Source: a virus. Taken from it: a DNA stretch of 64,000 nucleotides. Location: the IMG/VR virus record IMGVR_UViG_3300029690_000340; one strand, 5' to 3'. Under the pieces are notes generated by a model. The model did not search any database and was not told where the DNA came from. It saw only the letters and a list, made by a program, of their open reading frames with translations. The position numbers and the translations under genes were made by a program. Of this stretch, positions 2,788-58,613 are shown piece after piece. The stretch's first letter is position 1. Every line of letters starts with the position of its first letter.

Positions 2788-2867
2788 GTACATCTTCCAG
2801 CGGCATCTATCCATACCGGATGGGTGCTGCTGTTTTTTTGCCGAAACACTCAGGCACCTCGGAACTC

Positions 2868-7206: not shown

Positions 7207-7210
7207 GATA

Positions 7211-7245
7211 ATCCGGGCCTTCTGGCCCGGATTTCTTTTTGCCCT
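7211..7245 (+). terminator. rho-independent terminator
   Basis: ATCCGGGCCTTCTGGCCCGGAT hairpin followed by TTCTTTTT. Confidence 0.6.
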
Positions 7246-7262
7246 TCTTTGGTTCTTGGGTA

Positions 7263-7440: not shown

Positions 7441-8388
7441 ATGGTAACAAATGTGATTACCAAGTGTAACGGCAAGGATAAAGTCGTTGACTTTCGCGAC
7501 AAGCTGAGCCGGTCGCTGCCTGACGAGTATGCGATGATGCACCAGTCTGGCGGCAAGAAAAATGGAGGAAAGACCTTTCCCTCTGTCATCGAAATGGTCA
7601 TCTGTGATTTCACGAAGGGAACGGGCGATAAAAGTGTCACCTGTTCCGTGAATATTGACCCGACCATGTTCGACGAATGGCTCACCGTTTGCCGCTGCAA
7701 TGTCGGTACGATGGCTGTTCCGCTGATTGGACGTGTCGCGAAGGATGCGCAGAAACCCTGGGAGACTGTTTTGGCCCCCAATGCTGTCAATGGTCTGATG
7801 AAGTCGATTCATCGCACTGCCAGCGTTGCAAAGGCTTATGGCAGTCTTCTGAGCAAGAGCGTAAGCATTGTGGCCAAGGCCGTTAAGGGAGCAGAAAAGA
7901 AGGATATCCTCATGGCAGCCGGCACAGTTCTGAAAGAAGCCCGTACTGCTATCGCGGATGCGGACGTTGGGACTGCGCTCAAATTTCCGAACCGAATGGA
8001 CTACCAGTATGCCATGTCCAAGGTCAATACCTACAAGAAAGGCACGGACGGATTTGCGCCGGTGTCTATGCTGACAGTCACGCATGACAGCGTTCGTCAG
8101 GACGGAGACCTTGCAATGTATCCTTGGGTCCTGAAAATCACCAACGGCGAGGCCAAGGTGATTGAGCAGGCGACCGGGGCCACGACATTCGACGGAAAAT
8201 CCATGCGAAACAAGGTGGAGGTATTTATCCAGGTTTCTGACCGCGATATGTACCGCATGATGTATCGCGTAACACGCTTCATCGAAACGTGGGAGAATGC
8301 CATGTGCATCCCCGTCATCATCGAAGGAGAGAACAAAAAGGAGGCTGAACGTCAGGAGTATCTGGCGCGGCAGAAGGAAGGAGTTTAA
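7441..8388 (+). CDS. hypothetical protein
   Basis: RBS AAGTAAGGAGAA. No recognisable family. Lies immediately upstream of the ERF recombinase, possibly a recombination accessory protein. Confidence 0.4.
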   Translation: MVTNVITKCNGKDKVVDFRDKLSRSLPDEYAMMHQSGGKKNGGKTFPSVIEMVICDFTKGTGDKSVTCSVNIDPTMFDEWLTVCRCNVGTMAVPLIGRVAKDAQKPWETVLAPNAVNGLMKSIHRTASVAKAYGSLLSKSVSIVAKAVKGAEKKDILMAAGTVLKEARTAIADADVGTALKFPNRMDYQYAMSKVNTYKKGTDGFAPVSMLTVTHDSVRQDGDLAMYPWVLKITNGEAKVIEQATGATTFDGKSMRNKVEVFIQVSDRDMYRMMYRVTRFIETWENAMCIPVIIEGENKKEAERQEYLARQKEGV

Positions 8389-47393: not shown

Positions 47394-47422
47394 TTGACAA
47401 ATAAGCTATTGTGTGGTATAAT
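47394..47422 (+). promoter_or_regulatory. conserved promoter (TTGACA-N17-TGGTATAAT)
   Basis: TTGACAAATAAGCTATTGTGTGGTATAAT. Overlaps the listed ORF start at 47394, which is therefore not the real start. Confidence 0.55.
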
Positions 47423-47444
47423 TGCTGCATTCAGTGAAGGGGGG

Positions 47445-48566
47445 GTGGTTGACATCACGAATACCAGTAATTTAGCCGCTGACCGTGCGCTTGCCTATGA
47501 AGCCATTGAAAGGCAGCCTGAAACAGAAGAAATCGCAGCTTCGAATGAACAGGAGGCCGAAGCGAAGCAACCGGGAAATATCGGCGACCATGTGGCGATG
47601 TATCTCAGCCAAATTGGCAGCATCCCCATTATGCCGCAGGTGGAAGCGAATCGCTGCATTGAAAAAGTGCAGAAGGGGAATGCCGCTGCCGAACAGCTCG
47701 AAACGCTGCGGGTGATTGCCGAGGAGAGCGGGAATGCAGTTGACCCCGAAATCAAGAAAGACCTGATGAAGGCCATAGAAGCAGGAAGATGGGCGAAAGA
47801 TAAGGTTGTTGAGGGCAATCTTCGGCTTGTTGTGTCCATCGCAAAGAAATATATAAACTCAGCCGATTCTATGGTGTTCATGGACCTCATTCAGGAGGGC
47901 AACATTGGCCTCATGCGTTCCATCGACTCTTTTGACATTTCGAGGAATGTGAAGTTTTCCACCTACGCAACCTTCTGGATAAGGCAAAACATCACAAGAG
48001 CGCTTGCCACGACGGACCCAGCCATTCGCAAGCCCATCTATGTTGCGGAGGGCAGGCGGAGCGTCAATAATGCAAAAGAACAAATGCAACAAAAAGGCTT
48101 ACCTTGTGATGACCCTTTAGAAATCGCAAAATACATGGAGGGGGATGCGTGGGATTCCCTTTCAAAAAGGGAGCAGCAGAAAAAACTGCGCATCATCCAA
48201 CACTCGCTCCAGTACCGGAAGCCGGACTCGTTGGATGCGCCCGTCAATTCGGACGCCGCAAGCGATTCCAACACACCGCTTTCGGAATTCATCCCAAGCC
48301 ATAACGAGTGGGATAACCCGGAAATTTCAACGTCAGGGAAGGCACTATGGGAAACGATGGACAAAATCCTGCACGATATGCCCGCACGAGACGCCTGTGT
48401 GCTTCGCTTACGATTCGGATTGGAGGATGGTTGTGCTTATACCCTCAAAGAAATCGGGGACGAAATGGACTTAACGCGAGAGCGTGTCCGTCAGGTTACA
48501 GATAAAACACTCGATAAGCTACGCAACGGAAAGGCAGGGAAGATGCTTCAGGACTTTCTTGAATAA
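47445..48566 (+). CDS. sigma-70-family RNA polymerase sigma factor (RpoD/SigA-like group)
   Basis: Region 1.2 DHVAMYLSQIG. Region 2 GNLRLVVSIAKKYINSADSMVFMDLIQEGNIGLMRSIDSFDISRNVKFSTYATFWIRQNITRAL. Region 4 YTLKEIGDEMDLTRERVRQV. Start uncertain (GTG 47445 or nearby). Confidence 0.75.
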   Translation: MVDITNTSNLAADRALAYEAIERQPETEEIAASNEQEAEAKQPGNIGDHVAMYLSQIGSIPIMPQVEANRCIEKVQKGNAAAEQLETLRVIAEESGNAVDPEIKKDLMKAIEAGRWAKDKVVEGNLRLVVSIAKKYINSADSMVFMDLIQEGNIGLMRSIDSFDISRNVKFSTYATFWIRQNITRALATTDPAIRKPIYVAEGRRSVNNAKEQMQQKGLPCDDPLEIAKYMEGDAWDSLSKREQQKKLRIIQHSLQYRKPDSLDAPVNSDAASDSNTPLSEFIPSHNEWDNPEISTSGKALWETMDKILHDMPARDACVLRLRFGLEDGCAYTLKEIGDEMDLTRERVRQVTDKTLDKLRNGKAGKMLQDFLE

Positions 48567-48568: not shown

Positions 48569-48597
48569 AACGCCGCCCAGATGGGCGGCGTTTTTTT
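48569..48597 (+). terminator. rho-independent terminator
   Basis: ACGCCGCCCAGATGGGCGGCGT + TTTTTTT. Confidence 0.7.
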
Positions 48598-48674: not shown

Positions 48675-48841
48675 TTCGGTTCTCAGGTTCCCAACATTAA
48701 AATAGGCGTGTTTCCATATTTGCCGGTATGCTCAGAGCATACAAAGGAAGTATCTCAAACACAAAGAAAGTTCAGTCAGCGTCCGTTGCGGATGCTGGCT
48801 TTTATATATAAAAAATTCATAAACAAAAAGGAGAAATGAAC
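48675..48841. repeat. repeated intergenic regulatory cassette, copy 3 of 6
   Basis: Core identical to the other copies. Hairpin CAGCGTCCGTTGCGGATGCTG (48777-48797) + GCTTTTATATAT. Confidence 0.6.
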
Positions 48842-49207
48842 ATGAAAGCAATGATGTTTAAGAGGGGTTTCGGTGACGAAACAAAGTGGAAAGAGGTCTG
48901 CGCGGAGCTTGGGCTGCCGGAAGATACGGAGCAGGTTGAGTTGTCCGTATCCGCAACAAAGGTCCGTACCAGCCAAAACCGCAGTTGGGAAGCGACCGAC
49001 GAGGAGATGTCCCGAATTTGGGAACGCCTCGGCTCGTATTTCTTGCGCTGCGAGAGCATCTCCAGAACGAACATTCGCGTTTTCTGTGGCGGCGGAGATT
49101 CCTTTTCCGTTGTTCGCGGCACAACGCAGCCTGGATTCGTCGAGGTGGATGGACGGCTGATGGACTATGAAGCCTTTGAAGCATGGCTGTACCAGATGGC
49201 AGCTTGA
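48842..49207 (+). CDS. hypothetical protein
   Basis: ATG 9 nt after the cassette RBS AAAAGGAG. Confidence 0.4.
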   Translation: MKAMMFKRGFGDETKWKEVCAELGLPEDTEQVELSVSATKVRTSQNRSWEATDEEMSRIWERLGSYFLRCESISRTNIRVFCGGGDSFSVVRGTTQPGFVEVDGRLMDYEAFEAWLYQMAA

Positions 49208-49220
49208 GAAAGGAGAAAAC

Positions 49221-49634
49221 ATGAACGCACAGGAAAAAATCGACCAGCTTATGCAAGCCGAGATGGAGCATATCCGTTCCGTCGGCGGCATTTTGAATCT
49301 GCCGGAGGCCGACAGTGTTCTGAACGACCTGAACCGAGAAAAGCTGAAGGCTCTGAAGGAACTGCACGGACATCTCTACCTCGGACGCATCAACATCCAC
49401 GATACAGCCAAGCGGATTCGTATTGTGGAAGGAACCGAAGATGTGTACGAGGAAATGCTGGACCAGCCCCTATACAACTTCTGCTGTGATTTTGCCGTGC
49501 CCGTCAAGGATAAAACCTTGTCGGATTTGATTCGTGCTTGGAACGCAAGATTCGCGATTCCCGGTATGAAGGACGCGCAGAAAATCACAGAGCGTGTGGA
49601 GCAGGTTGGCGGCATAAATTTGATGTGGACTTAA
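49221..49634 (+). CDS. hypothetical protein
   Basis: RBS GAAAGGAGAAAAC + ATG. In frame with listed ORF 49167..49634. Confidence 0.4.
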   Translation: MNAQEKIDQLMQAEMEHIRSVGGILNLPEADSVLNDLNREKLKALKELHGHLYLGRINIHDTAKRIRIVEGTEDVYEEMLDQPLYNFCCDFAVPVKDKTLSDLIRAWNARFAIPGMKDAQKITERVEQVGGINLMWT

Positions 49635-49651
49635 AAAAGGAGAAATGAAAC

Positions 49652-50647
49652 ATGAATAATAGAATCATGCCGAAGTGGAGCGAAGTAAAGGATGTCAATG
49701 GCATCAACCTTCACCTGTTCGACGCCGTACAGGTCATCACCTCCGGCAACAAGCGCCATAACCAGACGGGCAGAATCATGGCCCTTCTGAAGACCAAGCC
49801 TTACCTCCAGATGGTAGAGGTGCTGTTTCAGGACGAGAAGCGGTCAAATTTCCTTACGTCATCTCTTCGTCTCGTTGAAAGCTCAGAGGAAGAGAAGGGA
49901 AAGTCACTGGCAAAAATCGACTCCCTGAAGCTCATGGGAGCAGAAATCACCGACTCTGATTTCTGCGTTGACCGTTATAATAACGATGCTTTCCTATTTG
50001 ACGATGAAACGCAGACGTGGAACGTCATGCTGGAAGGCATTTCCGATGTGGACCGACTATTCGGAACCTTTTTTGAAACGGAGCAGAACGATTCCTACTG
50101 TAACATCTATGCGGATGTAGACGAATACTGCACCAAGCTCGCAAAGCCATACCTCACGGTATCTCTGTGGCTCGGTGATGTCTGTGTAGAGGCAGTGCGC
50201 CCCTTATCAAAGGACGAGCAGGAAGCAGTGCTTCGCATCATCCGTCCTACCTACGAGAAGATGGACTACAAGAAGCTCCTGAAGGAGTGGGATGCGGAAG
50301 AGCAGAAATATGTGAACAGCATCATGCTGGAAGACGGCGATGGCTGCTACGAGTACAAATTCGCTGCCGATACCATTGAGGCCGCTAAGGCTGGCTTCAA
50401 TGAGGTCATCTGGATGGCGATTGAGCTGAAGCAGTACCGTTCCGGTCAGGATTTCAGCGTCAACTCCTTTATCGAGGACGGTGACGGCAAGTATGTCGAG
50501 TCCGACAGGGAAGGCCACATCGTCATCAATCGCGTCGTCACAACGCAGGAACCCAGCAAGTATATCAACTGGGAGATGGCTGGCACGCTGCCATTCATCT
50601 ATACGGTGGACCGCGAGAAGAGCGAGTGGAAGCTCCACGCGACTTAA
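49652..50647 (+). CDS. hypothetical protein
   Basis: RBS AAAAGGAGAAATG. Confidence 0.4.
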   Translation: MNNRIMPKWSEVKDVNGINLHLFDAVQVITSGNKRHNQTGRIMALLKTKPYLQMVEVLFQDEKRSNFLTSSLRLVESSEEEKGKSLAKIDSLKLMGAEITDSDFCVDRYNNDAFLFDDETQTWNVMLEGISDVDRLFGTFFETEQNDSYCNIYADVDEYCTKLAKPYLTVSLWLGDVCVEAVRPLSKDEQEAVLRIIRPTYEKMDYKKLLKEWDAEEQKYVNSIMLEDGDGCYEYKFAADTIEAAKAGFNEVIWMAIELKQYRSGQDFSVNSFIEDGDGKYVESDREGHIVINRVVTTQEPSKYINWEMAGTLPFIYTVDREKSEWKLHAT

Positions 50648-50653
50648 CAACTG

Positions 50654-50690
50654 AAGCGCCGGTGGATGAAAATATCCGCCGGCGCTTTTT
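50654..50690 (+). terminator. rho-independent terminator
   Basis: AAGCGCCGGTGGATGAAAATATCCGCCGGCGCTT + TTTCC. Confidence 0.65.
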
Positions 50691-50699
50691 CCATGTTTT

Positions 50700-50885
50700 G
50701 CCACAATCGAGTTCTCATATTCTTAGGTTCTCCATCAGGAAATAGGTGATTTTTTCTCTTCTGCCGGTATGCTGAAATCATACAAAAGAAGTATCTCAAA
50801 CACAAAGAAAGTTCAGTCAGCGTCCGTTGCGGATGCTGGCTTTTATATATAAAAATTTCATAAACAAAAAGGAGAAACGAAAAAA
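50700..50885. repeat. repeated intergenic regulatory cassette, copy 4 of 6
   Basis: Same core and hairpin as copy 3. Upstream GTTCTCATATTCTTAGGTTCTCC motif. Confidence 0.6.
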
Positions 50886-51584
50886 ATGAAGAACAAGGCA
50901 TATCTCTTACCAGCGTGCAAGACTGCTGACGGCGTTCCCATCGGCATTGGCTCCGAGGTGTACGCAATCACCTTTAAGCAGAAAGTCAACAAATACGGTC
51001 GGCTGTATCGTCCGTCCACGAGAGAGTTGGCGGTCGTAAAAGTAACGGTGTCTACTGTGACCTTCTCCGAATTTGTGGAACCCGGTTGGTTTGGCTGGAC
51101 GGGCGTTGCCTATTCGGGAATGACCGAAGTCGAATGCTCTGATGGTAAAACGAAGACGTTTTCCTACTTGCCCGGTATCGAGGTCAGCCAGTACACCATC
51201 TTCGCATCCGAGGACGCCGCAAAGGCCGCCTTGGAGAAGGCGGAGGCGGGCGGCGGTCTCTATACGAGAGCCGGATTCCCGTTGATGCCTTCTTGGCAGA
51301 TTGGCGAGGTACGGGCAGCTCTGGAGAAAGCTGAGCAGAGCACTGAGGAAGAGCCTTCCATCGTTCGCAACATCCCTTATGTCTCCGTTTGGGACGGCGG
51401 AAATTGCATTGCGGCGACAAAGGCAGACGTCTGTCTGGACACAAAGCAGGTATTCAACATTCAGACCATTGACGTTGGAGATTCTGTCAATGTTCTGAAC
51501 CATGAGTACATCGTGCTGCACGGAACAGAGTATACCGTTTTCCCGAAGGGCGAAGCGAAAGACGGCGCATACTGGCGTGACTGA
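50886..51584 (+). CDS. hypothetical protein
   Basis: RBS AAAAAGGAGAAACG. Confidence 0.4.
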   Translation: MKNKAYLLPACKTADGVPIGIGSEVYAITFKQKVNKYGRLYRPSTRELAVVKVTVSTVTFSEFVEPGWFGWTGVAYSGMTEVECSDGKTKTFSYLPGIEVSQYTIFASEDAAKAALEKAEAGGGLYTRAGFPLMPSWQIGEVRAALEKAEQSTEEEPSIVRNIPYVSVWDGGNCIAATKADVCLDTKQVFNIQTIDVGDSVNVLNHEYIVLHGTEYTVFPKGEAKDGAYWRD

Positions 51585-51608
51585 CAAAAAAGAAGGAGAA
51601 TGAGAATT

Positions 51609-52274
51609 ATGACTAATATTAGTGAGAAAACCACCGGTTCCTGCAAAGACCGCGAGTATATCGTGACAGAGGTCTGCCCGCATTGCGAAGCAGAGGTCGA
51701 GATGCGATGGAATGTGGCCGCAGACGGCTACAAGGCGTTCTGCCCTCATTGCGGCAATCGGCTGATGCTCTGCGACGCCTGCCAGCATCCGGAGGGCAAG
51801 TGCGTGGAGAACTGCGATTACAACTCCGAGACCGATACCTGCCGTCATAATCAGCCTGCACAGGAGCTGAAGGTCGGCGATGTTTGTGCCTATGGCTTTG
51901 GGACGGAGAACGCTTCCCGTGCCACGGTCAAAATCGTCAAAATGCTTCCGGATTCCAACGGTGCCGCTGTGATGTTCTTGAGCGTTGAGAAGGACGATAC
52001 CGGAAACGGTATGTTCAACTACCTGCTCAAAACCGGAAATACCATGAACGCCAGCTTGAAATACCTGACGAAGATTGAGTGCAGTTCCGACCAGGAGCGG
52101 GATAACTACGCCGAACTGGAGAAGCTGTGTACGGAATGCGACGCGGAGTTCTGCGTCTTCAATCCGCATGGCATCTGCAAGCTGCCCTTCGTCACCGGAA
52201 AGGCTCCGAGACTGGGCGATGACGGCTGCCAGGACTACGCTATGAAGGATTTCATGATGAAGGAGGATTGCTGA
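51609..52274 (+). CDS. Cys-rich hypothetical protein
   Basis: RBS GAAGGAGAATG. Multiple CxxC pairs (CPHCEAEV, CPHCGNRL, CDACQHPEGKC, CTECDAEFC). Confidence 0.4.
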   Translation: MTNISEKTTGSCKDREYIVTEVCPHCEAEVEMRWNVAADGYKAFCPHCGNRLMLCDACQHPEGKCVENCDYNSETDTCRHNQPAQELKVGDVCAYGFGTENASRATVKIVKMLPDSNGAAVMFLSVEKDDTGNGMFNYLLKTGNTMNASLKYLTKIECSSDQERDNYAELEKLCTECDAEFCVFNPHGICKLPFVTGKAPRLGDDGCQDYAMKDFMMKEDC

Positions 52275-52275
52275 T

Positions 52276-52680
52276 ATGCAGAAGACTTGTCTCAACTGCA
52301 CTCATGTGGGCGTGTGCTCCAAGCGGATGCAGTTCATCGTGAACAACTATCTCGTCAAAAGACACTACGACGAGATTGAGAATGTCAGCAAAACGCTCGA
52401 TATCTCCGTGAACTGCGACAGCTATGCAGAAAAGGATTTCTTTTCGTTCATCTGTGCGCGGGTTCGCGACTATTCCGATGGCGAAGTCTGGAGCGATGGG
52501 GACCAGATTCTGTGCAAGACAGAATCTGCCGCGAACGCGCTGTGCGACCTCCTGTGGCAGCTTTACAACGAACGAGGGGAGGCCTTTGACCTCCACACCG
52601 GCTACTACGACCACAAGGAGGACGAAAGAAATCACGAAGAAGACAGATACACCGGCTGGTGGTATGTGTCCGCCGACTGA
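52276..52680 (+). CDS. hypothetical protein
   Basis: Start 2 nt after the previous stop. Confidence 0.35.
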   Translation: MQKTCLNCTHVGVCSKRMQFIVNNYLVKRHYDEIENVSKTLDISVNCDSYAEKDFFSFICARVRDYSDGEVWSDGDQILCKTESAANALCDLLWQLYNERGEAFDLHTGYYDHKEDERNHEEDRYTGWWYVSAD

Positions 52681-52691
52681 AAGGAGAAGTA

Positions 52692-52895
52692 ATGAAAATC
52701 CGCAATATCCTTTGGGATACCGATGGCGGCAGGGAGGCTCTTGCCTCCCTGCCGAAGGAAGTCGAGCTGCCGAGTAGATTCGACCAGTCCCATTTTGCAA
52801 GTAGGGAAGAATGGCTCGACACGATTTCCAACTGGCTGTCCGACGAGTTTGGATTCTGTCATTTGGGGTTCGATGTCGGTGATGACGACATCTGA
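52692..52895 (+). CDS. small hypothetical protein (68 aa)
   Basis: RBS GAAAGGAGAAG + ATG. Confidence 0.3.
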   Translation: MKIRNILWDTDGGREALASLPKEVELPSRFDQSHFASREEWLDTISNWLSDEFGFCHLGFDVGDDDI

Positions 52896-52933
52896 GAATC
52901 TACGATTTTTTAACAATAAGGAGAAATGAAAAA

Positions 52934-53851
52934 ATGGGAAAAGGTAATGTTTGTGTGAGCGGTCCGTATGAGGGCCTGTTCTATATCGACAACGACTATA
53001 CCACAGTGCTTCGCCGCGAGGATGACTGTGAGGATACCATCCTCCGGAAAGACCTCAGCGCCAAGGATTTGTCCGGCAGCGACTGGCTCTTCGATGACGA
53101 AGGCAGTGCGAACGAGCTGGAGGATGTGCTGGAGTGCTTTGTGGAGAACTTCACGCACAGGTATCCCAGCTTTGCGCGTGTCAAGCAGGACAAGTGGCTT
53201 GGCCGCAATGTGCGCGTCATCCTCGAAAGCAGCCTGTTTTACATCGGCATTGAGGACAGCGACTGGGCCTATGCCGTGGAACTGCTTCAGAAGGATAACC
53301 CCTGTTCGGAGGGTTTCCAGAGGAAGCACTACAAGGCGTACCTTGACGGCATGAAAGCAGCCCTGCTGGAGCGCCTGCCAAGCATCGGCACCTACACGGG
53401 GCCGTGGACGCATGGCACCATCCGCAGGGAGCCTGTCAAGGACAACGACCTCCTCGCCGAGGCCGGCGACCGCATCGACAACGCAGTGTTCGACTTCATC
53501 TGCGCGGTTGTCACAGGCCACAGCGTAAACGGGGAAGCGCCGAAAGAGGCTCTTCTTGCAGCTGTGAATGAGCTTTCCGTGGAACACGTCAACGCGCTTC
53601 CGGAGGGCCTCCTGTCTGACGCTACGGACGAGGCGAAGGAAGCCGCCGGCGAACACTCCTTACAGGAGGATGCCGACGACGGGCTTCCGCTTCGCTGGGA
53701 TATGGCCGCCATTGGTCCTGTGGCCGACTATCTGGAAACCGCGCTTTCCGCACGGTTCCGCATCAATACCTGCCACCCCTGGCAGGATGATACCGAGTGC
53801 ATCTGCTACGCGACAGACGAGCGCTGCCCGTACTGCACCCACAAAATTTGA
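52934..53851 (+). CDS. hypothetical protein
   Basis: RBS AAGGAGAAATG. Confidence 0.4.
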   Translation: MGKGNVCVSGPYEGLFYIDNDYTTVLRREDDCEDTILRKDLSAKDLSGSDWLFDDEGSANELEDVLECFVENFTHRYPSFARVKQDKWLGRNVRVILESSLFYIGIEDSDWAYAVELLQKDNPCSEGFQRKHYKAYLDGMKAALLERLPSIGTYTGPWTHGTIRREPVKDNDLLAEAGDRIDNAVFDFICAVVTGHSVNGEAPKEALLAAVNELSVEHVNALPEGLLSDATDEAKEAAGEHSLQEDADDGLPLRWDMAAIGPVADYLETALSARFRINTCHPWQDDTECICYATDERCPYCTHKI

Positions 53852-53856
53852 TAAAA

Positions 53857-53888
53857 AAGCGCCGCCCGTAATGGACGGCGCTTTTTCT
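53857..53888 (+). terminator. rho-independent terminator
   Basis: AAAGCGCCGCCCGTAATGGACGGCGCTTT + TTCTTT. Confidence 0.7.
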
Positions 53889-53894
53889 TTGCAG

Positions 53895-54072
53895 TTCTCC
53901 GGTTCTTCAGTTCTCAGGTTCCTGGAAGGTGAATGCGGCAATTTCCACTTCCGCCGGTATGCTGAGACCATACCAAAGAAGTATCACAAACAAAAAAGAA
54001 AGTTCAGTCAGCGCCCGCGTGGGTGCTGGCTTTTATATATCACATAACCATCACAAAAAAGGAGAAATGAAA
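53895..54072. repeat. repeated intergenic regulatory cassette, copy 5 of 6
   Basis: Core conserved. Hairpin arms changed in a compensatory way (CAGCGCCCGCGTGGGTGCTG). Confidence 0.6.
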
Positions 54073-54819
54073 ATGGAGATTTATGTAAATTACCTCGCCA
54101 TTGAGGTCACTCGTCGCTGCAACATGAAATGCGAACACTGCCTGCGCGGAGATGCGCAAAATCTTGACATCTCAACCGCAGTTCTGTCGGGCATCGCTAA
54201 GCATATCCACCCTGCTTCCGTCATTTTCACGGGCGGCGAGCCGTCTTTGAATGTTCCGGCCATCAAGCGGTACTTTGAGCTTGCGGAGCGTTATGACACG
54301 ATGCCGGCTGCTTTCTATGTCGCCACCAACGGAGCGACGTCGAAGGAGCAGATGCGCGACCTCGCGCTGACGCTGCTGGAATCGTATGCTAAGATGGAAG
54401 AGCAGGATATGTGCGAGGTCGATGTCTCTGTGGATATGTTCCACGAGGCGTTCCGCGACAATGACAACGCGAAAATTCTGAGCGGCTTGTCCTTCTTCGG
54501 CCAGGGTAAACAGCATTCGGTCAAGGATGACGATTTGAATTGGCTGTTAAATACCGGACGTGCCAACAAGAACGGCATCGGCGTAAGAGCACCGGAGGTG
54601 CTCAGGACCGACATGGACGAGCTGGTAACGGATTACTCCACAGAGTACAACAGCATTGCCTTCGATACGCTCTACATTGCCGCAAACGGTAATGTGGTAG
54701 ACGGCTGTGACAGCAGTTACGAGGATATCGACGACGAGGAGAACGTGATTTGCAAGGTCAACCAGCTTCAGAAGAAAGTGAAAGACTATGTGAAGAACGC
54801 CGATTCTCAAATCTCATAA
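54073..54819 (+). CDS. radical SAM domain protein (QueE/activase-like small radical SAM)
   Basis: CxxxCxxC cluster motif TRRCNMKCEHC near the N-terminus. Glycine-rich SAM motif VIFTGGEPSLN. 248 aa. Confidence 0.55.
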   Translation: MEIYVNYLAIEVTRRCNMKCEHCLRGDAQNLDISTAVLSGIAKHIHPASVIFTGGEPSLNVPAIKRYFELAERYDTMPAAFYVATNGATSKEQMRDLALTLLESYAKMEEQDMCEVDVSVDMFHEAFRDNDNAKILSGLSFFGQGKQHSVKDDDLNWLLNTGRANKNGIGVRAPEVLRTDMDELVTDYSTEYNSIAFDTLYIAANGNVVDGCDSSYEDIDDEENVICKVNQLQKKVKDYVKNADSQIS

Positions 54820-54831
54820 GGAGGGCTGAAG

Positions 54832-56262
54832 ATGTTTGGTTTAGACAATCTGTTTGCTCAGACATCCGCACAGAAATTCTACATTAGCAGAGACCGAATC
54901 GCGGAAATCCTGCGCGTCAGTCCTGATGCACTGGATGCCTTCGAGAAGGCTTATTCCAAAGCTGCGTTGCAGACTGAGCCAGAAAGCATTTTCGAGGTCA
55001 ATTCCAGGCAGGCAGCGGCGAAAAACGAGCGGCTCGGCGACGACAGCCCGGAAGAGCTGAAAGCTCTTACGGAACGCATCGTGAAGGAGCTTATCTGGCA
55101 GACGCTGACCTACACTTATGATGGGAAAACAGGCAAAATTGAAAAATCGCTTTCCAACGCACCGGAGAAAAATGCTCCTGTCACCAATCAGGACCTGCTG
55201 CGAATTCCCGCTTCGCTGCGACCGCAGCTGAGTGGGGAACTGATGAAGCGAGACCTTGACATCACCGCCTCAGCTGTGTTCCTGTTCTACTACGACAAGA
55301 TGCAGAACGGGAAGACGCCGAAGGACCGTCGGGATGCGTATAACCGCTTTCGGCAGGGACTGGACATCCTTGACCTTGATGCGCTGGCCTACCGCATCAT
55401 CGGGCAGAATCGCAACTCCACCGGACATTGGTTCCCGGAGCTTGTGAGTGCCTACCGGGATTCTGGATTCTTCCGGATTCCGGCAACGACGATAGCCAAG
55501 GTCCCCCTGACGCTCTTACAGCTGACTCGTCTGGACTATCACAGCCTAACACCTTCGACCATCCAAATCGTCGATAACTGGGCGCACGCTGTATTTCGCC
55601 TGAATGACGAGCGGGATTACTTCGTGAAAACCGGCACCTATTCATCGAAGTTCGACTTCCGGAATTGTCTGGTACACGGAGAAAAAGAGGTTCGAGAGCT
55701 TGGCGAGTATTTGCTCTACATCCACCATCAGGCGTTACAGATGGCCGGTCCCCTTAGTTTTCCCTGCATTTATGGGGTCTCAACGACAAATGAGTGGGTC
55801 GTGCGGGAATTCATTCCAGATAAAGAGGGAAATCCCTGTATCTATCATGGTTTGCCGCTTCATACGGAATATCGCGTATTTGTTGACTGTGACAGCGATG
55901 CTGTCATCGGTGTCTCTCCCTATTGGGAGCCGAAGACTATGCTCAATCGCTTTGGTTCATGCTCGGACGCAAACAGTCCGCATCAGATGCACGATTATGT
56001 GATTTTCAAAAGTCACGAAGCGACCTTGATGCGGCGCTACCATGAGAATGTCGATTCCGTGGTGGAACACATTCGGGAATTCCTGCCGGCGCTTGACCTG
56101 CAAGGCCAGTGGAGCATCGACGTGATGCAGAATGGTGACGATTTCTGGATTATCGACATGGCTGTGGCGGAAAATTCAGCGTTCTATGATTGCGTGCCGG
56201 AGAGTCTCCGCAGGCCATCTGCTGAAAACTGGATACCCGATATTCTGAAGCCCAACAACTGA
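54832..56262 (+). CDS. hypothetical protein, possible ATP-grasp-like fold
   Basis: RBS AAGGAGGG. C-terminal region (YRVFVDCDSDAVIGVSPYW ... FWIIDMAVAENSAFYD) resembles ATP-grasp C-domain patterns. Assignment tentative. Confidence 0.3.
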   Translation: MFGLDNLFAQTSAQKFYISRDRIAEILRVSPDALDAFEKAYSKAALQTEPESIFEVNSRQAAAKNERLGDDSPEELKALTERIVKELIWQTLTYTYDGKTGKIEKSLSNAPEKNAPVTNQDLLRIPASLRPQLSGELMKRDLDITASAVFLFYYDKMQNGKTPKDRRDAYNRFRQGLDILDLDALAYRIIGQNRNSTGHWFPELVSAYRDSGFFRIPATTIAKVPLTLLQLTRLDYHSLTPSTIQIVDNWAHAVFRLNDERDYFVKTGTYSSKFDFRNCLVHGEKEVRELGEYLLYIHHQALQMAGPLSFPCIYGVSTTNEWVVREFIPDKEGNPCIYHGLPLHTEYRVFVDCDSDAVIGVSPYWEPKTMLNRFGSCSDANSPHQMHDYVIFKSHEATLMRRYHENVDSVVEHIREFLPALDLQGQWSIDVMQNGDDFWIIDMAVAENSAFYDCVPESLRRPSAENWIPDILKPNN

Positions 56263-56290
56263 TTTTCTTGACTCGAAAGGAGACAGAAGC

Positions 56291-56836
56291 ATGAAATTGC
56301 TGAAAGACTACGAATCCTCCTCTCTCACCCTTAAACGGGTTCGGGAGGTCATCGACAGGGCACTGGACGAGCTGGAGTATGACTCCAGGTTCGACGTCAA
56401 TGTGGCTGCCGAGAACGCCTATTATTACTTGGCACACACCGCCTGTTGGGACGAGGACTTGGCCGCATTCCAGGCCCAGCTGGACAACGGCTGCGGTCCT
56501 GACGACGGTGCCGGGGAGCTGACCGCTTATGAGCGCGTCGAAATCCTGGCCGCACAGGTCGAACGACTCCTGAACGACAAGGAGACCTATGCGTACAGCA
56601 AGACCATCGACGAAGATGCCCTGCTGGACATTGTTGCCAAGACCCATCCAAGGCTGCTGGCTAAGCGGCCAGCCGATATGTCCGTTGAGGATTTCAAACA
56701 CCTCTGGACTATGGTAGTTTCTGCCTACATCGTGGGCGGACGCGACTATGCCGAGGACGAGTTCATCAACTATACGGATGCCATCGGCGCGACGCCAGAG
56801 GCCGTCGCTGCGGTTATCCGGGCGGGCAATGAATAA
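56291..56836 (+). CDS. hypothetical protein
   Basis: RBS GAAAGGAGACAG. Confidence 0.4.
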   Translation: MKLLKDYESSSLTLKRVREVIDRALDELEYDSRFDVNVAAENAYYYLAHTACWDEDLAAFQAQLDNGCGPDDGAGELTAYERVEILAAQVERLLNDKETYAYSKTIDEDALLDIVAKTHPRLLAKRPADMSVEDFKHLWTMVVSAYIVGGRDYAEDEFINYTDAIGATPEAVAAVIRAGNE

Positions 56837-56866
56837 GAAAAATACGGAACAAAGGAGAAATGAAAA

Positions 56867-57628
56867 ATGATTAAAAGTTTGAACAAAGCATATCAGACCG
56901 ATTCCATGTATTACTGGTGTAACGCCGAGGGCGAGGTAAACTATCCCGGTTCTGGGTTTTCGACAGGTGACTCTGAGCGGCTTCCCGCTGCGGTGAAGGA
57001 ACTGTACGAACACTATCAGTTCAGCCCCGGCTGCGACGCAAATCTCTATACGGTCACTTACAGCGGCGAGGATGGGATGCTCCTCACGACGATGTTCAAC
57101 AGTAACTGGATGGATGTCCCTGCTGTCAAGGACGCCAAACAGAAGGCGAGGAAAGCGCTCCGCAGCATTGCAACGGAACTGACCAGACAGTGCAAGCCGT
57201 GGGGGACCGTTCTGTTCGGCGAGGATACCGACCCGGAGGGTGACGAAATTGCCCTGTTTGTCCCTGCGCAGGAGTGTGCGAGTCACTTTGAGGAAGCGGT
57301 AAAGCTCTTCGATGCCAGCGCCTTCTTTGAGCGAGTCAGGGACAAGGTTGCGGAATGCCGCTATCTTGTGTTCCTTAATAGCTCGTATGTGCGCGACGCG
57401 CAGGGCTACTTCCCCCAGCAGCTGTCCGAGGATGCTGACCCGATGGATGAATCCCAGGAGGGCAACTGGGCGGACTGCGGTGGTCCCATGCTCATCATGG
57501 ACGTATACGCAGCCTCCAAGGCCGAGGTCGCCCAGAAGATTGCCGAGGCATATCCCAATGTGGATATGGCAGTCTTCAAGATTCTCCGCTGCGACGGGGA
57601 AATGACAGAGGTGACGGCCCTTGTATAA
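56867..57628 (+). CDS. hypothetical protein
   Basis: RBS AAAGGAGAAATG. Confidence 0.4.
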   Translation: MIKSLNKAYQTDSMYYWCNAEGEVNYPGSGFSTGDSERLPAAVKELYEHYQFSPGCDANLYTVTYSGEDGMLLTTMFNSNWMDVPAVKDAKQKARKALRSIATELTRQCKPWGTVLFGEDTDPEGDEIALFVPAQECASHFEEAVKLFDASAFFERVRDKVAECRYLVFLNSSYVRDAQGYFPQQLSEDADPMDESQEGNWADCGGPMLIMDVYAASKAEVAQKIAEAYPNVDMAVFKILRCDGEMTEVTALV

Positions 57629-57833
57629 AATCAAGAACCTGACGTCTCTGCTGCATACCGTGGAAGCCGGCAGATACGGCAGCCTACCCGTCTATACACT
57701 GCACGGGGAGAAGGTCTGGAACAGAATCGGCGACCGCGTGGAACTGCACCTTGGCAACGGAAATAATGTTCTCTGCTCTGAGAAAGTGTTCCGGAAGGTC
57801 GAACCCTTTCTGGAGGCCATTCCCAAGTCTTAA
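57621..57833 (+). CDS. small hypothetical protein (70 aa), TTG start
   Basis: TTG 7 nt after AGAGGTGA. Overlaps the previous stop. Confidence 0.25.
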   Translation: MYKIKNLTSLLHTVEAGRYGSLPVYTLHGEKVWNRIGDRVELHLGNGNNVLCSEKVFRKVEPFLEAIPKS

Positions 57834-57837
57834 ACCT

Positions 57838-57869
57838 GAGCGCCGCCCCTTTGTGGGCGGCGCTTTTTC
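57838..57869 (+). terminator. rho-independent terminator
   Basis: GAGCGCCGCCCCTTTGTGGGCGGCGCT + TTTTC. Confidence 0.7.
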
Positions 57870-57874
57870 TTTTT

Positions 57875-58067
57875 GCCTTTTCACACTCCAAATTCGAGGT
57901 TCCTCGGTTCTTAGGTTCCAATTTGCAAAATGCGGAGTTTTCCGTGCCTGCCGGTATGCTGAGACCATACAAAAGAAGTATCACAAACACAAAGAAAATT
58001 CAGTCAGCGTCCATACGGATGCTGGCTTTTATATATCAAAAAAATTTCAAAAAAGGAGAATTAAAAA
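57875..58067. repeat. repeated intergenic regulatory cassette, copy 6 of 6
   Basis: Core conserved. Hairpin CAGCGTCCATACGGATGCTG. Upstream GGTTCCTCGGTTCTTAGGTTCC motif. Confidence 0.6.
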
Positions 58068-58613
58068 ATGGAAAAAATGATTCAAATTGCAGAAAGCTAC
58101 GGATGGGCAGTCGATATGGACAGCGATAGCATCGAATTTAACCAGTGCAGTCCGGCGGGGGAAGATTTCTCCTTCACGGTTCTGACGAAAGACGCATCTG
58201 ACGCCGAGAGTCTTGCAGCCGAAGTCCGTTCTTACGCGGACAGCTTCGATACCGAGGAACACGTCAAGATGTTGGTCGATGCGCAGGGCAGCGTGAGTGG
58301 TGTGCCAGACATCAAGACGTTGGTGGAAGACGCTGACGCCATCCAAGAGATGCTCAACGACCTTGCTGACGCTCTTGAAAATGGCGACGCCAACACAGAT
58401 GACGAGGAGACTGAAGCCTGCGGCCTCGAAGGCACTTACGAGTGGCTTCTGAACAACTTCGACATCGACGGCACGGCGGGTCGCATTATCCACAATGTTT
58501 TGGAGTATGCCGACCGCATGACTGGCGACGAGCAGTATGAGTTCTTGACGGAGATGCTGGATGGAACGATTGGTCTGTCTGACCGCGAAATCAGGAATCT
58601 CTGCTGGAACTGA
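58068..58613 (+). CDS. acidic hypothetical protein
   Basis: RBS AAAAGGAGAATT. D/E-rich. Confidence 0.4.
   Translation: MEKMIQIAESYGWAVDMDSDSIEFNQCSPAGEDFSFTVLTKDASDAESLAAEVRSYADSFDTEEHVKMLVDAQGSVSGVPDIKTLVEDADAIQEMLNDLADALENGDANTDDEETEACGLEGTYEWLLNNFDIDGTAGRIIHNVLEYADRMTGDEQYEFLTEMLDGTIGLSDREIRNLCWN

What the first reader, a model, noticed from the sequence alone, without database searches (positions are those of the whole stretch)
48675..58067. About 180-bp intergenic cassette repeated six times, each fused to an identical RBS, with a hairpin whose arms co-vary
Copies lie at 2868-3038, 7263-7440, 48675-48841, 50700-50885, 53895-54072 and 57875-58067. All share CCGGTATGCTGAGACCATACAAAAGAAGTATCACAAACACAAAGAAAGTTCAGTCAGC, then a 9-bp stem-loop, then GCTTTTATATAT and AAAAAGGAGAAATGAAAAAATG leading into a different gene each time. 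The stem sequence differs between copies but stays paired, with G-U wobble tolerated: CAGCGTCCG/CGGATGCTG, CAGCATCC/GGATACTG, CTGCACCC/GGGCGCAG, CAGCGCCC/GGGTGCTG, CAGCGTCC/GGATGCTG. That pattern points to a functional RNA hairpin, such as an attenuator, antitermination, processing or stability element. Several copies also have a GGTTCT(T/C)AGGTTCC-type motif upstream, and copy 2 has it as an inverted repeat (GGTTCTTGGG...CCTAAGAACC). Most copies follow a clean rho-independent terminator, so each gene unit is built as terminator, cassette, then gene. The sigma-70 factor gene at 47445 sits immediately before the first of the clustered copies, which suggests element-encoded control of this cargo block.
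Basis: seen in the sequence. Interest (0 to 1): 0.62.

Follow-up and report, generated by a model that had tools for sequence, protein, structure and literature searches.

The report
Repeated promoter-leader cassette on a conjugative element
A ~180-bp control module (regulator-binding repeats, a promoter-like box, a leader RNA hairpin and a ribosome-binding site) is copied in front of at least a dozen otherwise unrelated gene units of a large conjugative element from human-gut Oscillospiraceae. It most likely puts them under one common switch, a layout already known in principle from other conjugative plasmids.

Summary
Six copies lie at the stated coordinates, with none expected by chance. 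About 190 more copies (about 90 unique) occur in human-gut metagenomes and in one Oscillospiraceae genome.

The window is a type IV secretion conjugative element, not a phage.

Each copy has the same order of parts:
- a strong terminator;
- an array of 8-nt-phased TTCY motifs, whose orientation flips in two copies, so it acts as DNA;
- an invariant TATRCT box that resembles a -10 element, with no good -35;
- an invariant stretch of about 35 nt;
- a GC hairpin followed by UUUUAUAUA;
- an AU-rich linker;
- AAGGAGAA and ATG.

The hairpin is under real structural selection. There are 37 different stem sequences and 97% of positions stay paired. Five of nine outer pairs carry double changes. G·U pairs favour the sense strand 61 to 11.

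I read the cassette as a co-regulated promoter-operator-leader module. The hairpin is probably a weak leader terminator, or else an mRNA stabiliser.

The sigma-factor link is not supported. That sigma is RpoD-like with canonical DNA-contact residues, and the cassettes are spread over about 140 kb.

The closest known analogues are the CUP elements of pKM101 and the Reg576 regulon of p576. There is no sequence or Rfam match. I rate it a new variant of a known kind, of moderate interest.

The parts
2861..3041 (+). Cassette copy 1. Inverted GGAACT/GGAACC motifs at 2861 and 2869. TATGCT box at 2919-2924, inside the palindrome GTATG-N7-CATAC at 2918-2934. Invariant leader box at 2930-2946. RBS AAGGAGAA at 3023-3030. 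ATG at 3039 of a 61-aa orphan gene.
7251..7443 (+). Cassette copy 2. GGTTCTTGGG / CCTAAGAACC inverted motif pair at 7251-7280. TATGCT at 7325-7330. RBS at 7424-7431. ATG at 7441 of a 315-aa gene, followed by an ERF recombinase and a primase-like gene.
48678..48844 (+). Cassette copy 3. TTCY octamers at 48678 and 48686, with an in-phase copy at 48710. TATGCT at 48727-48732, inside the perfect palindrome GTATGCTCAGAGCATAC at 48726-48742. RBS at 48828-48835. ATG at 48842.
50710..50888 (+). Cassette copy 4. Octamers at 50710 and 50726. TATGCT at 50768-50773. RBS at 50869-50876. ATG at 50886.
53893..54075 (+). Cassette copy 5. Four tandem octamers at 53893, 53901, 53909 and 53917, with an in-phase copy at 53941. 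TATGCT at 53958-53963. RBS at 54059-54066. ATG at 54073 of a radical-SAM gene.
57898..58070 (+). Cassette copy 6. Octamers at 57898, 57906 and 57914, with an in-phase copy at 57938. TATGCT at 57955-57960. RBS at 58053-58060. ATG at 58068 of a very acidic 181-aa protein.
2966..2992 (+). Leader hairpin of copy 1 (AGTCAGCATCC TTTAC GGATACTGGCT), followed by the tail TTTTATATAT. It has one C·A mismatch and is the weakest of the six.
7372..7396 (+). Leader hairpin of copy 2 (AGTCTGCACCC AAC GGGCGCAGGCT), followed by the tail TTTATATAAA.
48774..48800 (+). Leader hairpin of copy 3: 12 pairs with a 3-nt loop, followed by the tail TTTATATATA.
50815..50841 (+). Leader hairpin of copy 4, identical in sequence to that of copy 3.
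54006..54031 (+). Leader hairpin of copy 5 (inner stem GCGCCC / GGGTGC), followed by the tail TTTATATATC.
58002..58027 (+). Leader hairpin of copy 6, followed by the tail TTTATATATC.
2798..2839 (+). Unit-end terminator before copy 1: a 15-bp stem followed by T7.
7210..7241 (+). Unit-end terminator before copy 2.
48569..48597 (+). Terminator of the sigma gene, lying before copy 3.
50655..50690 (+). Unit-end terminator before copy 4.
53857..53886 (+). Unit-end terminator before copy 5.
57838..57875 (+). Unit-end terminator before copy 6.
47394..48566 (+). Context, probably not part of the mechanism. A canonical promoter (TTGACA-N17-TATAAT with a TG extension, 47394-47422) drives the RpoD-like sigma gene (GTG 47445 to 48566).

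Best explanation
The cassette is a portable transcription and translation start module. It places many unrelated accessory gene units of a large (about 150 kb) Oscillospiraceae conjugative element under one common control.

DNA part (inferred):
- An array of 8-nt-phased nRKTTCYn sites: 2-4 tandem copies, one inverted copy (RGAAT) and one further in-phase copy 24 nt downstream. This array binds an element-encoded regulator.
- It flanks and overlaps a weak promoter that lacks a good -35. Its -10 element is the invariant TATRCT inside the 17-bp palindrome GTATG-N7-CATAC.
- Transcription would start about 7 nt downstream of TATRCT.

RNA part:
- The leader is about 100 nt. Its first ~35 nt are invariant and unstructured.
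- A 10-12-bp GC hairpin follows directly, then UUUUAUAUA. It acts as a weak (leaky) intrinsic terminator close to the promoter.
- RNA polymerases that pass it transcribe an unstructured AU-rich linker, a strong Shine-Dalgarno sequence (AAGGAGAA) and the gene.
- A strong terminator closes each unit and insulates the next cassette.

What is shown: the repeat, its anatomy, structural selection on the hairpin in the sense strand, the DNA-level nature of the upstream motifs, and the modular shuffling of gene units at the cassette.

What is inferred: the transcription start site, the identity and sign (repressor or activator) of the regulator, and that the hairpin actually terminates transcription.
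For: - The repeat is real and specific to this lineage.
- The window encodes a type IV secretion system: coupling protein, VirB4, pilins and a CHAP/lysozyme protein.
- Tandem TTCY octamers occur 8 times against 0.27 expected, and 7 of the 8 lie in cassettes. Their phase and the +24-nt copy are constant. Their orientation flips in copies 1 and 2, which argues for protein-DNA recognition.
- TATRCT is 100% conserved in 97 unique copies, although the metagenome search pattern did not require it. The only variant (G to A) moves towards TATAAT. The 5-6 nt after it are variable, as expected for a discriminator region. It resembles the GGTATAAT of the element's canonical promoters.
- No canonical sigma-70 promoter is found anywhere in the cassette.
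- Hairpin covariation is strong. G·U pairs number 61 on the sense strand against 11 on the antisense strand. The bona fide unit-end terminators show the same bias, 18 against 2.
- The terminator scan flags the hairpin in four of the six copies (copies 3-6; copies 1 and 2 are not flagged). The d'Aubenton-type score is -9 to +14, against 15-39 for most unit-end terminators.
- In all six leaders only this hairpin is stable and the ribosome-binding site is free.
- 26 upstream contexts combine with 20 downstream gene families, and several combinations are mixed.
- Precedents exist for co-regulated repeated upstream regions on conjugative plasmids: p576/Reg576, pKM101 CUP and pLS20 (PMC6294495, PMC6289460).
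- Precedents also exist for leader terminators in Gram-positive conjugative elements (PMC11658703, PMC13401043).
Against: - No transcript data exist, so the start site is inferred from a single hexamer with two non-consensus positions and no -35.
- An RNA helix between GGUAUGCU and AGUAUCAC is equally compatible with the G-to-A variant. If it forms, the start site would lie upstream of the TATRCT box.
- The U-tract is short (4 U, then AUAUAU) and two of the six hairpins score below the terminator threshold.
- No alternative antiterminator fold is present, and no antiterminator or regulator gene was identified.
- The invariance of the ~35-nt leader and of AUAUA after the stem is not explained by this model.
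- The cargo genes are orphans, so an 'establishment gene' role is only suggested by ERF, a primase-like gene and several very acidic small proteins.
Confidence: 0.5

Rival explanations
1. The promoter-operator reading is the same, but the hairpin is not a terminator. It is a 5'-UTR stabiliser or processing roadblock. After cleavage in the unstructured A-rich 5' part, 5'-to-3' exonuclease (RNase J type) stops at the hairpin. This leaves a stable mRNA that begins with a stem-loop just upstream of an AU-rich ribosome standby region.
For: - The hairpin is constitutive, with no competing fold.
- Its terminator scores are borderline or negative in copies 1 and 2.
- The linker to the ribosome-binding site is unstructured and AU-rich.
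- There is a direct precedent. Inverted repeats in the leader of ardC576 on plasmid p576 raise expression, probably through transcript stability (PMC6294495).
- 5' stem-loops protect mRNAs in Bacillus and other Firmicutes (established knowledge).
Against: - A pure stabiliser does not need the invariant U-run placed directly after the stem in nearly every one of the 37 stem variants.
- The stem base (A-U, G-C, C-G) never varies. This suggests more than generic stability.
- The hairpin lies about 35 nt from the inferred 5' end, not at it.
Confidence: 0.25
2. The cassette is a trans-controlled antitermination switch, similar to lambda PR'-qut-tR'. The promoter fires constitutively and makes a short RNA of about 65 nt that ends at the hairpin. 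An element-encoded factor loads at the invariant DNA or RNA just after the start site. AAGTAT, 21 nt after TATRCT, could act as a -10-like pause signal. The loaded factor lets RNA polymerase read through into the gene.
For: - The order is promoter-like box, invariant initial transcribed region, then terminator-like hairpin.
- The spacing between TATRCT and AAGTATC is fixed in all copies.
- No cis antiterminator fold exists, so any regulation of the hairpin would have to act in trans.
- Processive antitermination is common in Gram-positive conjugative elements: conAn and canT (PMC8191782 title and abstract, PMC11658703).
Against: - No Q-, N-, NusG- or ConAn-like gene was recognised in the window.
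- The invariance of AAGTATC was imposed by my search patterns, so it is not independent evidence.
- A processive factor would make a dozen separate promoters and strong unit-end terminators partly redundant.
- The hairpin is only a weak terminator.
Confidence: 0.12
3. The cassette is a promoter class read specifically by the element's own sigma factor (47445-48566), giving a phage-like early-to-late cascade. The canonical promoter drives sigma, and sigma drives the cassettes.
For: - The sigma gene has a perfect host-type promoter and sits directly before copy 3.
- The cassettes lack a host-type -35.
- TATRCT keeps the T-12, A-11 and T-7 positions that any sigma-70-type factor needs.
Against: - The sigma is RpoD-like over regions 1.2 to 4. 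It has the same -10 and -35 contact residues as primary sigma factors, so no altered specificity is predicted.
- Cassettes occur on both sides of the transfer-gene block and over about 140 kb, so adjacency means little.
- The six canonical promoters are better candidate targets.
Confidence: 0.12
4. The hairpin works in single-stranded DNA during conjugative transfer. It would be either an Frpo/ssi-type single-strand promoter or a single-strand origin or priming signal repeated along the transferred strand.
For: - The element is conjugative.
- All cassettes share one orientation.
- G·T pairs are also tolerated in DNA hairpins, so the strand bias alone cannot separate RNA from plus-strand DNA.
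- Repeated Frpo elements precede leading-region genes in other plasmids (PMC11541004).
Against: - An Frpo must fold in the template strand. That strand shows no significant structure (z = +0.35), and the hairpin is less stable there in 30 of 37 variants.
- No -35/-10 mimic is present.
- The hairpin has 10-12 bp, not the long imperfect stem of Frpo or ssoA.
- Copies are spread over about 140 kb rather than confined to one leading region.
Confidence: 0.05
5. The repeat is a mobile or recombination element, such as a MITE, a transposon end or an attC-like site. In that case it is not a regulatory module.
For: - The cassette marks junctions where gene units are shuffled between related elements.
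- Hairpins with covarying arms and strand bias also typify attC sites and REP elements (established knowledge).
Against: - There are no terminal inverted repeats and no target duplications.
- Orientation is fixed and the position is always between a terminator and a start codon, with the ribosome-binding site inside the repeat.
- There is no match in the phage or plasmid collections.
- Sequence outside the hairpin is highly conserved, unlike attC sites.
- The shuffling is explained by homologous recombination between the repeats.
Confidence: 0.03

Closest known systems
CUP (conserved upstream) elements of the IncN plasmid pKM101/R46 (Delver & Belogurov 1997, as cited in PMC6294495 and PMC6289460)
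   Same: A long conserved sequence is repeated directly upstream of several separate transcription units of a conjugative plasmid. It is thought to carry the promoter and the binding sites for plasmid-encoded regulators (ArdK, ArdR), giving coordinated expression.
   Different: CUP elements come from a Gram-negative plasmid and are more than 400 bp long. They show no sequence similarity to the cassette: there is no match anywhere in PLSDB. No covarying leader hairpin with a U-tail and no shared ribosome-binding site are described for CUP. A leading-region location is not established here.
Reg576 regulon of Bacillus pumilus plasmid p576 (PMC6294495)
   Same: This is a Firmicutes conjugative plasmid. 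Short motifs in direct and inverted orientation lie just upstream of, and inside, several promoters of putative establishment genes. They are bound cooperatively by one plasmid repressor. One leader also carries stem-loops that raise expression.
   Different: The p576 promoters are canonical sigma-A promoters, and only the 7-bp operator is shared between them, not a 180-bp block. Here the motif is a different 8-nt-phased TTCY unit, the promoter lacks a -35, and no ribbon-helix-helix or other regulator was identified.
Leader terminators and attenuators of Gram-positive conjugation operons (Tn916 T1/canT, PMC11658703; pLS20 cATT 'zipper' attenuator and conAn, PMC13401043 and PMC8191782)
   Same: An intrinsic terminator sits between the promoter and the first gene of a conjugative-element operon. 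It acts as an insulator or attenuator and is overcome by a dedicated mechanism.
   Different: Those systems have a single copy per element, with long leaders (about 450 nt) and a defined antiterminator RNA or protein. Here there are a dozen short copies, no alternative fold and no recognisable antiterminator.
Frpo/ssi single-strand promoters of F-like and ColIb plasmids (PMC11541004)
   Same: These are repeated structured elements that precede co-oriented genes of a conjugative element.
   Different: Frpo is a long hairpin in the transferred template strand that mimics -35 and -10 elements. Here the template strand is unstructured and the hairpin is favoured on the sense strand.
Lambdoid late-gene module PR'-qut-tR' (textbook knowledge, not tested here)
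   Same: The order is the same: promoter, conserved initial transcribed region containing a -10-like element, then an early terminator.
   Different: That module is a single copy in a proteobacterial phage and depends on the Q protein. No Q-like gene was found here. The resemblance is in form only.

Membership tests
Intrinsic (Rho-independent) terminator used as a leader attenuator | GC-rich stem-loop with a stem of about 5-14 bp and a loop of 3-8 nt | tested here: met
   Stems have 8-12 bp and loops 3-8 nt. The free energy is -7 to -20 kcal/mol across 37 variants. The terminator scan flags copies 3-6.
Intrinsic (Rho-independent) terminator used as a leader attenuator | U-rich tract directly 3' of the stem | tested here: inconclusive
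   The tail is UUUUAUAUAU, with 7 U in 10 but only 4 consecutive. The d'Aubenton-type score runs from -9 to +14, against 15-39 for most unit-end terminators.
Intrinsic (Rho-independent) terminator used as a leader attenuator | Structure selected on the transcribed (sense) strand | tested here: met
   G·U pairs number 61 on the sense strand and 11 on the antisense strand. The sense strand is more stable in 30 of 37 variants. True terminators of the element show the same bias, 18 against 2.
Intrinsic (Rho-independent) terminator used as a leader attenuator | Mutually exclusive antiterminator structure (the classic cis attenuator) | tested here: not met
   RNAalifold and six single folds show no competing helix that overlaps the stem.
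Intrinsic (Rho-independent) terminator used as a leader attenuator | Transcripts actually end at the U-tract | not testable with these tools
   This needs term-seq or in vitro transcription.
CUP-type conserved upstream elements (IncN) | Multiple copies of one conserved block directly upstream of separate transcription units of a conjugative element | tested here: met
   There are six copies in the window and 12-14 in the host genome, each lying between a terminator and a start codon.
CUP-type conserved upstream elements (IncN) | Sequence homology to CUP, or presence on IncN-type plasmids | tested here: not met
   There is no blastn match in 72,556 PLSDB plasmids.
CUP-type conserved upstream elements (IncN) | Location in the leading region and control by ArdK/ArdR-type regulators | not tested
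   No relaxase or oriT was found in the window. No regulator was identified.
Reg576-type operator regulon (p576) | Short motif in direct and inverted copies upstream of and within several promoters | tested here: met
   8-nt-phased TTCY octamers occur 8 times against 0.27 expected. Phase, the inverted copy and the +24-nt copy are constant.
Reg576-type operator regulon (p576) | Canonical sigma-A promoter (-35, 17-bp spacer, -10) | tested here: not met
   Only a -10-like TATRCT is present. The position where a -35 would lie reads about gaGgCg.
Reg576-type operator regulon (p576) | Ribbon-helix-helix repressor encoded within the regulon | tested here: inconclusive
   No ribbon-helix-helix or HTH hit was found among the cassette-driven proteins tested. 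Many of them are orphans, so a regulator could be hidden among them.
Frpo/ssi single-strand DNA promoter | Long imperfect hairpin in the template (transferred) strand that recreates -35 and -10 elements | tested here: not met
   The template strand folds no better than shuffled sequence (z = +0.35). No TTGACA or TATAAT is present. The hairpin is weaker on that strand.
Any curated RNA family (Rfam 15) | Match to a covariance model | tested here: not met
   Only HEARO is found elsewhere in the window at gathering score. The best cassette hit has E = 0.059 and lies far below its gathering score.
Promoter class of an element-specific sigma factor | Sigma factor with diverged DNA-recognition regions | tested here: not met
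   The best family matches are RpoD/SigA. The region 2.4 and 4.2 contact residues are conserved (read against textbook sigma-70 residues).
Transposon end / MITE | Terminal inverted repeats, target duplications, either orientation, similarity to known elements | tested here: not met
   There are no terminal inverted repeats. All copies share one orientation. There are no database matches.

The most novel reading that the evidence does not exclude
The invariant ~35-nt leader together with the terminator-like hairpin may be a multi-copy, trans-controlled antitermination switch. In this reading every cassette fires constitutively and makes a short abortive RNA. A still unidentified element-encoded factor (a protein or an RNA) recognises the invariant initial transcribed region and lets RNA polymerase through. 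A dozen operons of a conjugative element would then be switched on together at the level of elongation rather than initiation. The short RNAs, which share one conserved 5' sequence, could themselves act in trans.
Probability: 0.12. Interest if true: 0.7.

Novelty: new variant of a known kind. Interest (0 to 1): 0.45.

Why it matters
Large conjugative elements of gut Firmicutes are almost unstudied, and how they time expression of their accessory genes is unknown.

This cassette defines a ready-made regulon. About 20 orphan gene families sit behind one control module. They include ERF, a primase-like protein, a radical-SAM enzyme and several very acidic small proteins that could be DNA mimics. 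That makes them a natural candidate list for establishment or anti-defence functions.

The cassette is also a compact natural part for genetic work in Oscillospiraceae, which currently lack tools. It combines regulator sites, a promoter, a leader hairpin and a strong ribosome-binding site.

It also appears to act as portable homology, through which gene units are swapped between related elements.

Tried and rejected
- **Phage origin.** Relatives sit in IMG/VR, but the window encodes a full type IV secretion set. There is no megablast match to 50,697 phage records. The short blastn hits to Staphylococcus phages cover only the A-rich ribosome-binding-site part and are chance matches.
- **Leader peptide.** An ORF runs from the ATG in GGTATGCTG to the TAA in TATATAA. 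I rejected it because the ATG becomes ATA in the TATACT variants, there are frame-changing length differences, and no Shine-Dalgarno sequence precedes it.
- **TATATA as a -10, or TTCAGY/TATATA as a -35/-10 pair.** No hexamer in this stretch has T at position 6. The TTCAG-to-TATATA distance varies from 24 to 30 nt with hairpin length.
- **RGAAT as a -10.** Position 2 of the hexamer is A in only 54% of copies. RGAAT is better read as an inverted TTCY site.
- **GTATG/CATAC as an RNA stem.** The G-to-A change in the left arm is not compensated in the right arm.
- **Antisense partner for the invariant leader elsewhere in the window.** None was found.
- **A second class of metagenome hits with the boxes permuted.** These come from low-GC repeats that look eukaryotic, in unrelated samples. 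They are coincidental. One genome hit (L041) lies in a coding region and is also chance.
- **Function of cassette-driven genes.** Pfam and PHROGs gave almost nothing.
- **Homologues of the 497-aa sigma-4/alpha-CTD-like protein.** None carries a name.
- **Distant relatives through the sigma protein in IMG/VR.** Only 99% identical copies were found.
- **Literature search with cassette sequence strings.** No paper was found.

Full report
**Observation**

The repeat is real. A repeat search finds one family of six 120-nt copies at 2913-3032, 7319-7438, 48721-48840, 50762-50881, 53952-54071 and 57949-58068. They are 66-95% identical to the reference copy.

A 30-nt degenerate core (GGTATGCT-N5-CATACNAANGAAGTATC) hits exactly these six places, against 0.00 expected in shuffles. 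A profile built from relatives finds the same six and no degenerate extras. The alignment confirms the shared string, the hairpin, the GCTTTTATATAT tail and the AAGGAGAA ribosome-binding site running into six different genes.

Each copy is preceded by a strong stem-loop with a T-run. Copies 1 and 2 each contain one C·A or A·C mismatch, so they are not fully paired.

**Context**

The window is a conjugative element, not a phage. It encodes the following:
- a VirD4-type coupling protein (17428-19704);
- a VirB4-type ATPase (22739-25231);
- two type IV secretion pilins;
- a CHAP/lysozyme protein;
- a PrgI-like protein and a signal peptidase;
- ERF, UvrD, UDG, a DUF1064 protein, an RpoD-like sigma factor and an IscB.

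Exact-pattern scans found the cassette in about ten IMG/VR contigs and in many human-gut metagenome contigs. Among 185,579 species genomes it occurs only in Oscillospiraceae bacterium CM18GR_63. That genome has 12 strict matches, plus two more with a relaxed pattern. All lie on one strand between 232 and 376 kb of a 570-kb contig.

The element is therefore about 150 kb long, and the cassettes lie on both sides of the 40-kb transfer-gene block. In total I collected about 190 genuine copies, of which about 90 are unique.

There is no match in 50,697 phage records or 72,556 plasmids. No Rfam family matches, and no paper contains the sequence.

**Anatomy, 5' to 3'**

*1. Unit-end terminator of the preceding gene.*

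*2. An array of 8-nt-phased motifs, nRKTTCYn (GGTTCT, GGTTCC, AGTTCT, TATTCC).*
- There are 2-4 tandem copies.
- Exactly 8 nt after the last one comes an inverted copy (RGAAT, with AA 100% and 96% conserved).
- Another direct copy lies 24 nt (three periods) after the last tandem copy.
- Tandem pairs occur 8 times in the window against 0.27 expected, and 7 of the 8 are in cassettes.
- In copies 1 and 2 the motifs are inverted (GGAACT, GGAACC, AGAACC). The signal therefore works in either orientation, which points to protein-DNA recognition rather than RNA.
- Tandem short repeats with sub-helical spacing are typical of ribbon-helix-helix and similar cooperative binders, for example MetJ boxes and omega heptads (my knowledge) and the Reg576 heptamers (PMC6294495).

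*3. The box CGGTATGCT.*
- In 97 unique copies T-A-T-R-C-T is 100% conserved, although the metagenome search did not require it.
- The only variant, G to A, gives TATACT, which is closer to TATAAT.
- The next 5-6 nt are variable, as in a discriminator region.
- The box resembles the GGTATAAT of the element's six canonical promoters, TTGACA-N17-TGTGGTATAAT. Some copies even have TGG before it.
- The left half of the palindrome GTATG-N7-CATAC is conserved two bases further than the right half. That asymmetry fits a -10 hexamer laid over a palindromic operator.
- No acceptable -35 is present: the corresponding position reads about gaGgCg.

*4. CATACnAArGAAGTATC, an A-rich spacer of 15-17 nt, then TTCAGYC.*

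*5. The hairpin and its tail TTTTATATA.*

*6. 20-35 nt of variable AU-rich sequence, then AAGGAGAA and ATG.*

**The hairpin**

Thirty-seven different hairpin sequences fall into at least six inner-stem types. Examples are CAGCGTCC/GGATGCTG, CAGCGGTT/GACCGCTG, CCGACGGTT/AACCGTTGG, CCGGTGCCCC/GGGAGCGCTGG, CCGGAGGTCC/GGACCGCCGG and CTGCACCC/GGGCGCAG. All fold into stems of 8-12 bp.

On an alignment of 34 non-redundant copies:
- The nine outer pairs are paired in 97.1% of cells.
- Five of the nine pairs show changes on both sides, and one pair occurs as GC, UA, CG and UG.
- None of 500 shuffles reaches the observed values on four of the five measures; for the count of pairs with double changes, 7 of 500 do.
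- Sliding the partner by 1-3 columns drops pairing to 21-47%.
- RNAalifold recovers the same helix.

The structure is strand-specific. There are 61 G·U pairs on the sense strand against 11 on the antisense strand, and the sense strand is more stable in 30 of 37 variants. As a control, the bona fide unit-end terminators of the same loci show the same bias, 18 against 2.

The stem is followed at once by UUUUAUAUA in almost every variant. The terminator scan flags copies 3-6. A d'Aubenton-type score places the hairpin near the threshold, at -9 to +14, whereas most unit-end terminators score 15-39.

In all six leaders, folded from the inferred start site, only this hairpin is stable. The 5' 35 nt, the linker and the ribosome-binding site are open. 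There is no alternative antiterminator helix.

**Interpretation**

I read the cassette as a portable promoter-operator-leader-RBS module that defines a regulon of accessory units.

Modularity is shown directly. Across the collected loci, 26 upstream contexts combine with 20 downstream gene families. Several combinations are mixed: one upstream context is joined to two different genes, and one gene is found behind three different contexts. The repeats therefore also act as joints for exchanging units.

The downstream genes are almost all orphans. The exceptions are an ERF recombinase with a primase-like gene, a VWA protein and a radical-SAM enzyme. Several first genes are extremely acidic, with net charges of -35, -26 and -21. 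This is reminiscent of DNA-mimic anti-restriction proteins, but it was not tested.

For the hairpin I commit to a leaky promoter-proximal terminator. The close second reading is an mRNA stabiliser, as proposed for the stem-loops in the ardC576 leader of p576 (PMC6294495).

Neither reading explains two things: why the ~35-nt leader and the AUAUA after the stem are invariant, and why the three base pairs at the foot of the stem never vary. A trans-acting factor that reads this region remains possible.

**The sigma factor**

The protein is RpoD-like over its whole length. It keeps the residues that read -10 and -35 in primary sigma factors: FWIRQNITR in region 2.4 and TRERVRQ in region 4.2 (interpreted with textbook sigma-70 knowledge).

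Its own gene is driven by a perfect canonical promoter. Five further copies of that promoter stand before the genes for a signal peptidase, an S1-domain protein, a flotillin, UDG and UvrD.

The sigma is therefore more likely to serve those promoters than the cassette. Its position next to copy 3 is weak evidence, given how widely the cassettes are spread.

**Rivals that were tested**

- A single-strand promoter of the Frpo type is not supported. The template strand folds no better than shuffled sequence (z = +0.35), no -35/-10 mimic exists, and the hairpin is weaker on that strand.
- A transposon end or MITE is not supported. There are no terminal inverted repeats, orientation and position are fixed, and no database match exists.
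- A leader peptide, an antisense partner and alternative -10 assignments were examined and rejected.

**Comparison with known systems**

The closest analogues by function are:
- the CUP elements of pKM101, which are conserved blocks of more than 400 bp before seven leading-region transcription units and are thought to bind ArdK and ArdR (PMC6294495, PMC6289460);
- the Reg576 regulon of p576, with heptamer operators in direct and inverted orientation around four promoters (PMC6294495);
- the unstudied repeated upstream sequences of pLS20, mentioned in the same paper.

Leader terminators with dedicated antitermination are known in Tn916 (PMC11658703) and pLS20 (PMC13401043), but each as a single copy.

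The cassette shares no sequence with any of these. It also differs from all of them by combining an operator array, a promoter without a -35, an invariant leader, a covarying terminator-like hairpin and a ribosome-binding site in one 180-bp unit copied a dozen times.

I therefore rate it a new variant of a known kind. It is solid as an observation and moderate in surprise. It is mainly useful as an entry point to the regulation and cargo of an unstudied class of gut Firmicutes conjugative elements.

Noticed in passing
window 40382-43747: An IscB locus. The RRXRR/IscB ORF lies at 42353-43747. Two Rfam HEARO (omega-RNA) hits lie at 40417-40636 and 41835-41998, inside a 300-nt duplication that is 96% identical. 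Between the second HEARO and the IscB start codon there are four degenerate direct repeats of about 37 nt (GTTGAYGTNCCCNRCCAAATGACAGG...), with a period of 65-67 nt, at 42092-42330. Two more follow the first HEARO (40710, 40757). The spacing resembles a small CRISPR-like array or a repetitive 3' part of the omega-RNA. The repeats are only 78-85% identical.
   Followed up: partly
window 19791, 20445, 31194, 33495, 38072, 47393 (each about 55 nt): A second repeated promoter family. It consists of six near-consensus sigma-A promoters, TTGACA-N17-TGTGGTATAAT. They stand before the genes for a signal peptidase, an S1-domain protein, a flotillin, UDG, UvrD and the sigma factor, and have short unstructured leaders. 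The element therefore uses two distinct standard promoter parts.
   Followed up: partly
window 47445-48566: A conjugative element that carries its own full-length RpoD-like (group 1/2) sigma factor with canonical promoter-contact residues. Its purpose is unknown. One possibility is that it boosts the element's consensus promoters in new hosts.
   Followed up: partly
window 44859-46836: A 497-aa ORF with two sigma region-4-like HTH domains and an RNA polymerase alpha-CTD-like domain. It overlaps a DUF1064 ORF. In related contigs the genes are called differently: a 374/420-aa alpha-CTD-like protein, followed by a 293-aa protein that fuses sigma-4 with DUF1064. This suggests a frameshift or a different gene boundary here.
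   Followed up: partly
L001-L165 and the window; for example L024 compared with window 48600-48730: Cassettes are junctions of modular shuffling. The same upstream terminator or gene is joined to different downstream genes in different contigs, and the reverse also occurs. There are 26 upstream contexts and 20 downstream families.
   Followed up: partly
window 58068-58613; also L003, L039 and others: Several first genes behind cassettes encode very acidic orphan proteins: 181 aa with net charge -35, 183 aa with -26 and 172 aa with -21. This composition is typical of DNA-mimic anti-restriction proteins. No family match was found.
   Followed up: partly
window 53888-53900 versus 54061-54073; 57864-57881 versus 58051-58068: The pyrimidine-rich stretch right after each upstream terminator (for example UUUGCAGUUCUCC) is complementary to the cassette's ribosome-binding site and start region (GGAGAAAUGAAAA). 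In read-through transcripts it could mask the ribosome-binding site. It may equally be a low-complexity coincidence.
   Followed up: no
A2 columns 5-11 with 28-35 (for example window 53956-53962 with 53979-53986): RNAalifold proposes a second helix, GGUAUGCU with AGUAUC-AC. The natural G-to-A variant turns a G·U pair into A-U. If this helix is real, the TATRCT box would be transcribed and the start site would lie further upstream. The right arm was fixed by my search pattern, so this is not informative.
   Followed up: no
window 1143-2249 and 61845-63599: Two proteins carry S-layer-homology domains. One also has an anthrax-lethal-factor-like metalloprotease domain and the other a beta-lactamase/transpeptidase-like domain. 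Both are cell-surface cargo of the element.
   Followed up: no
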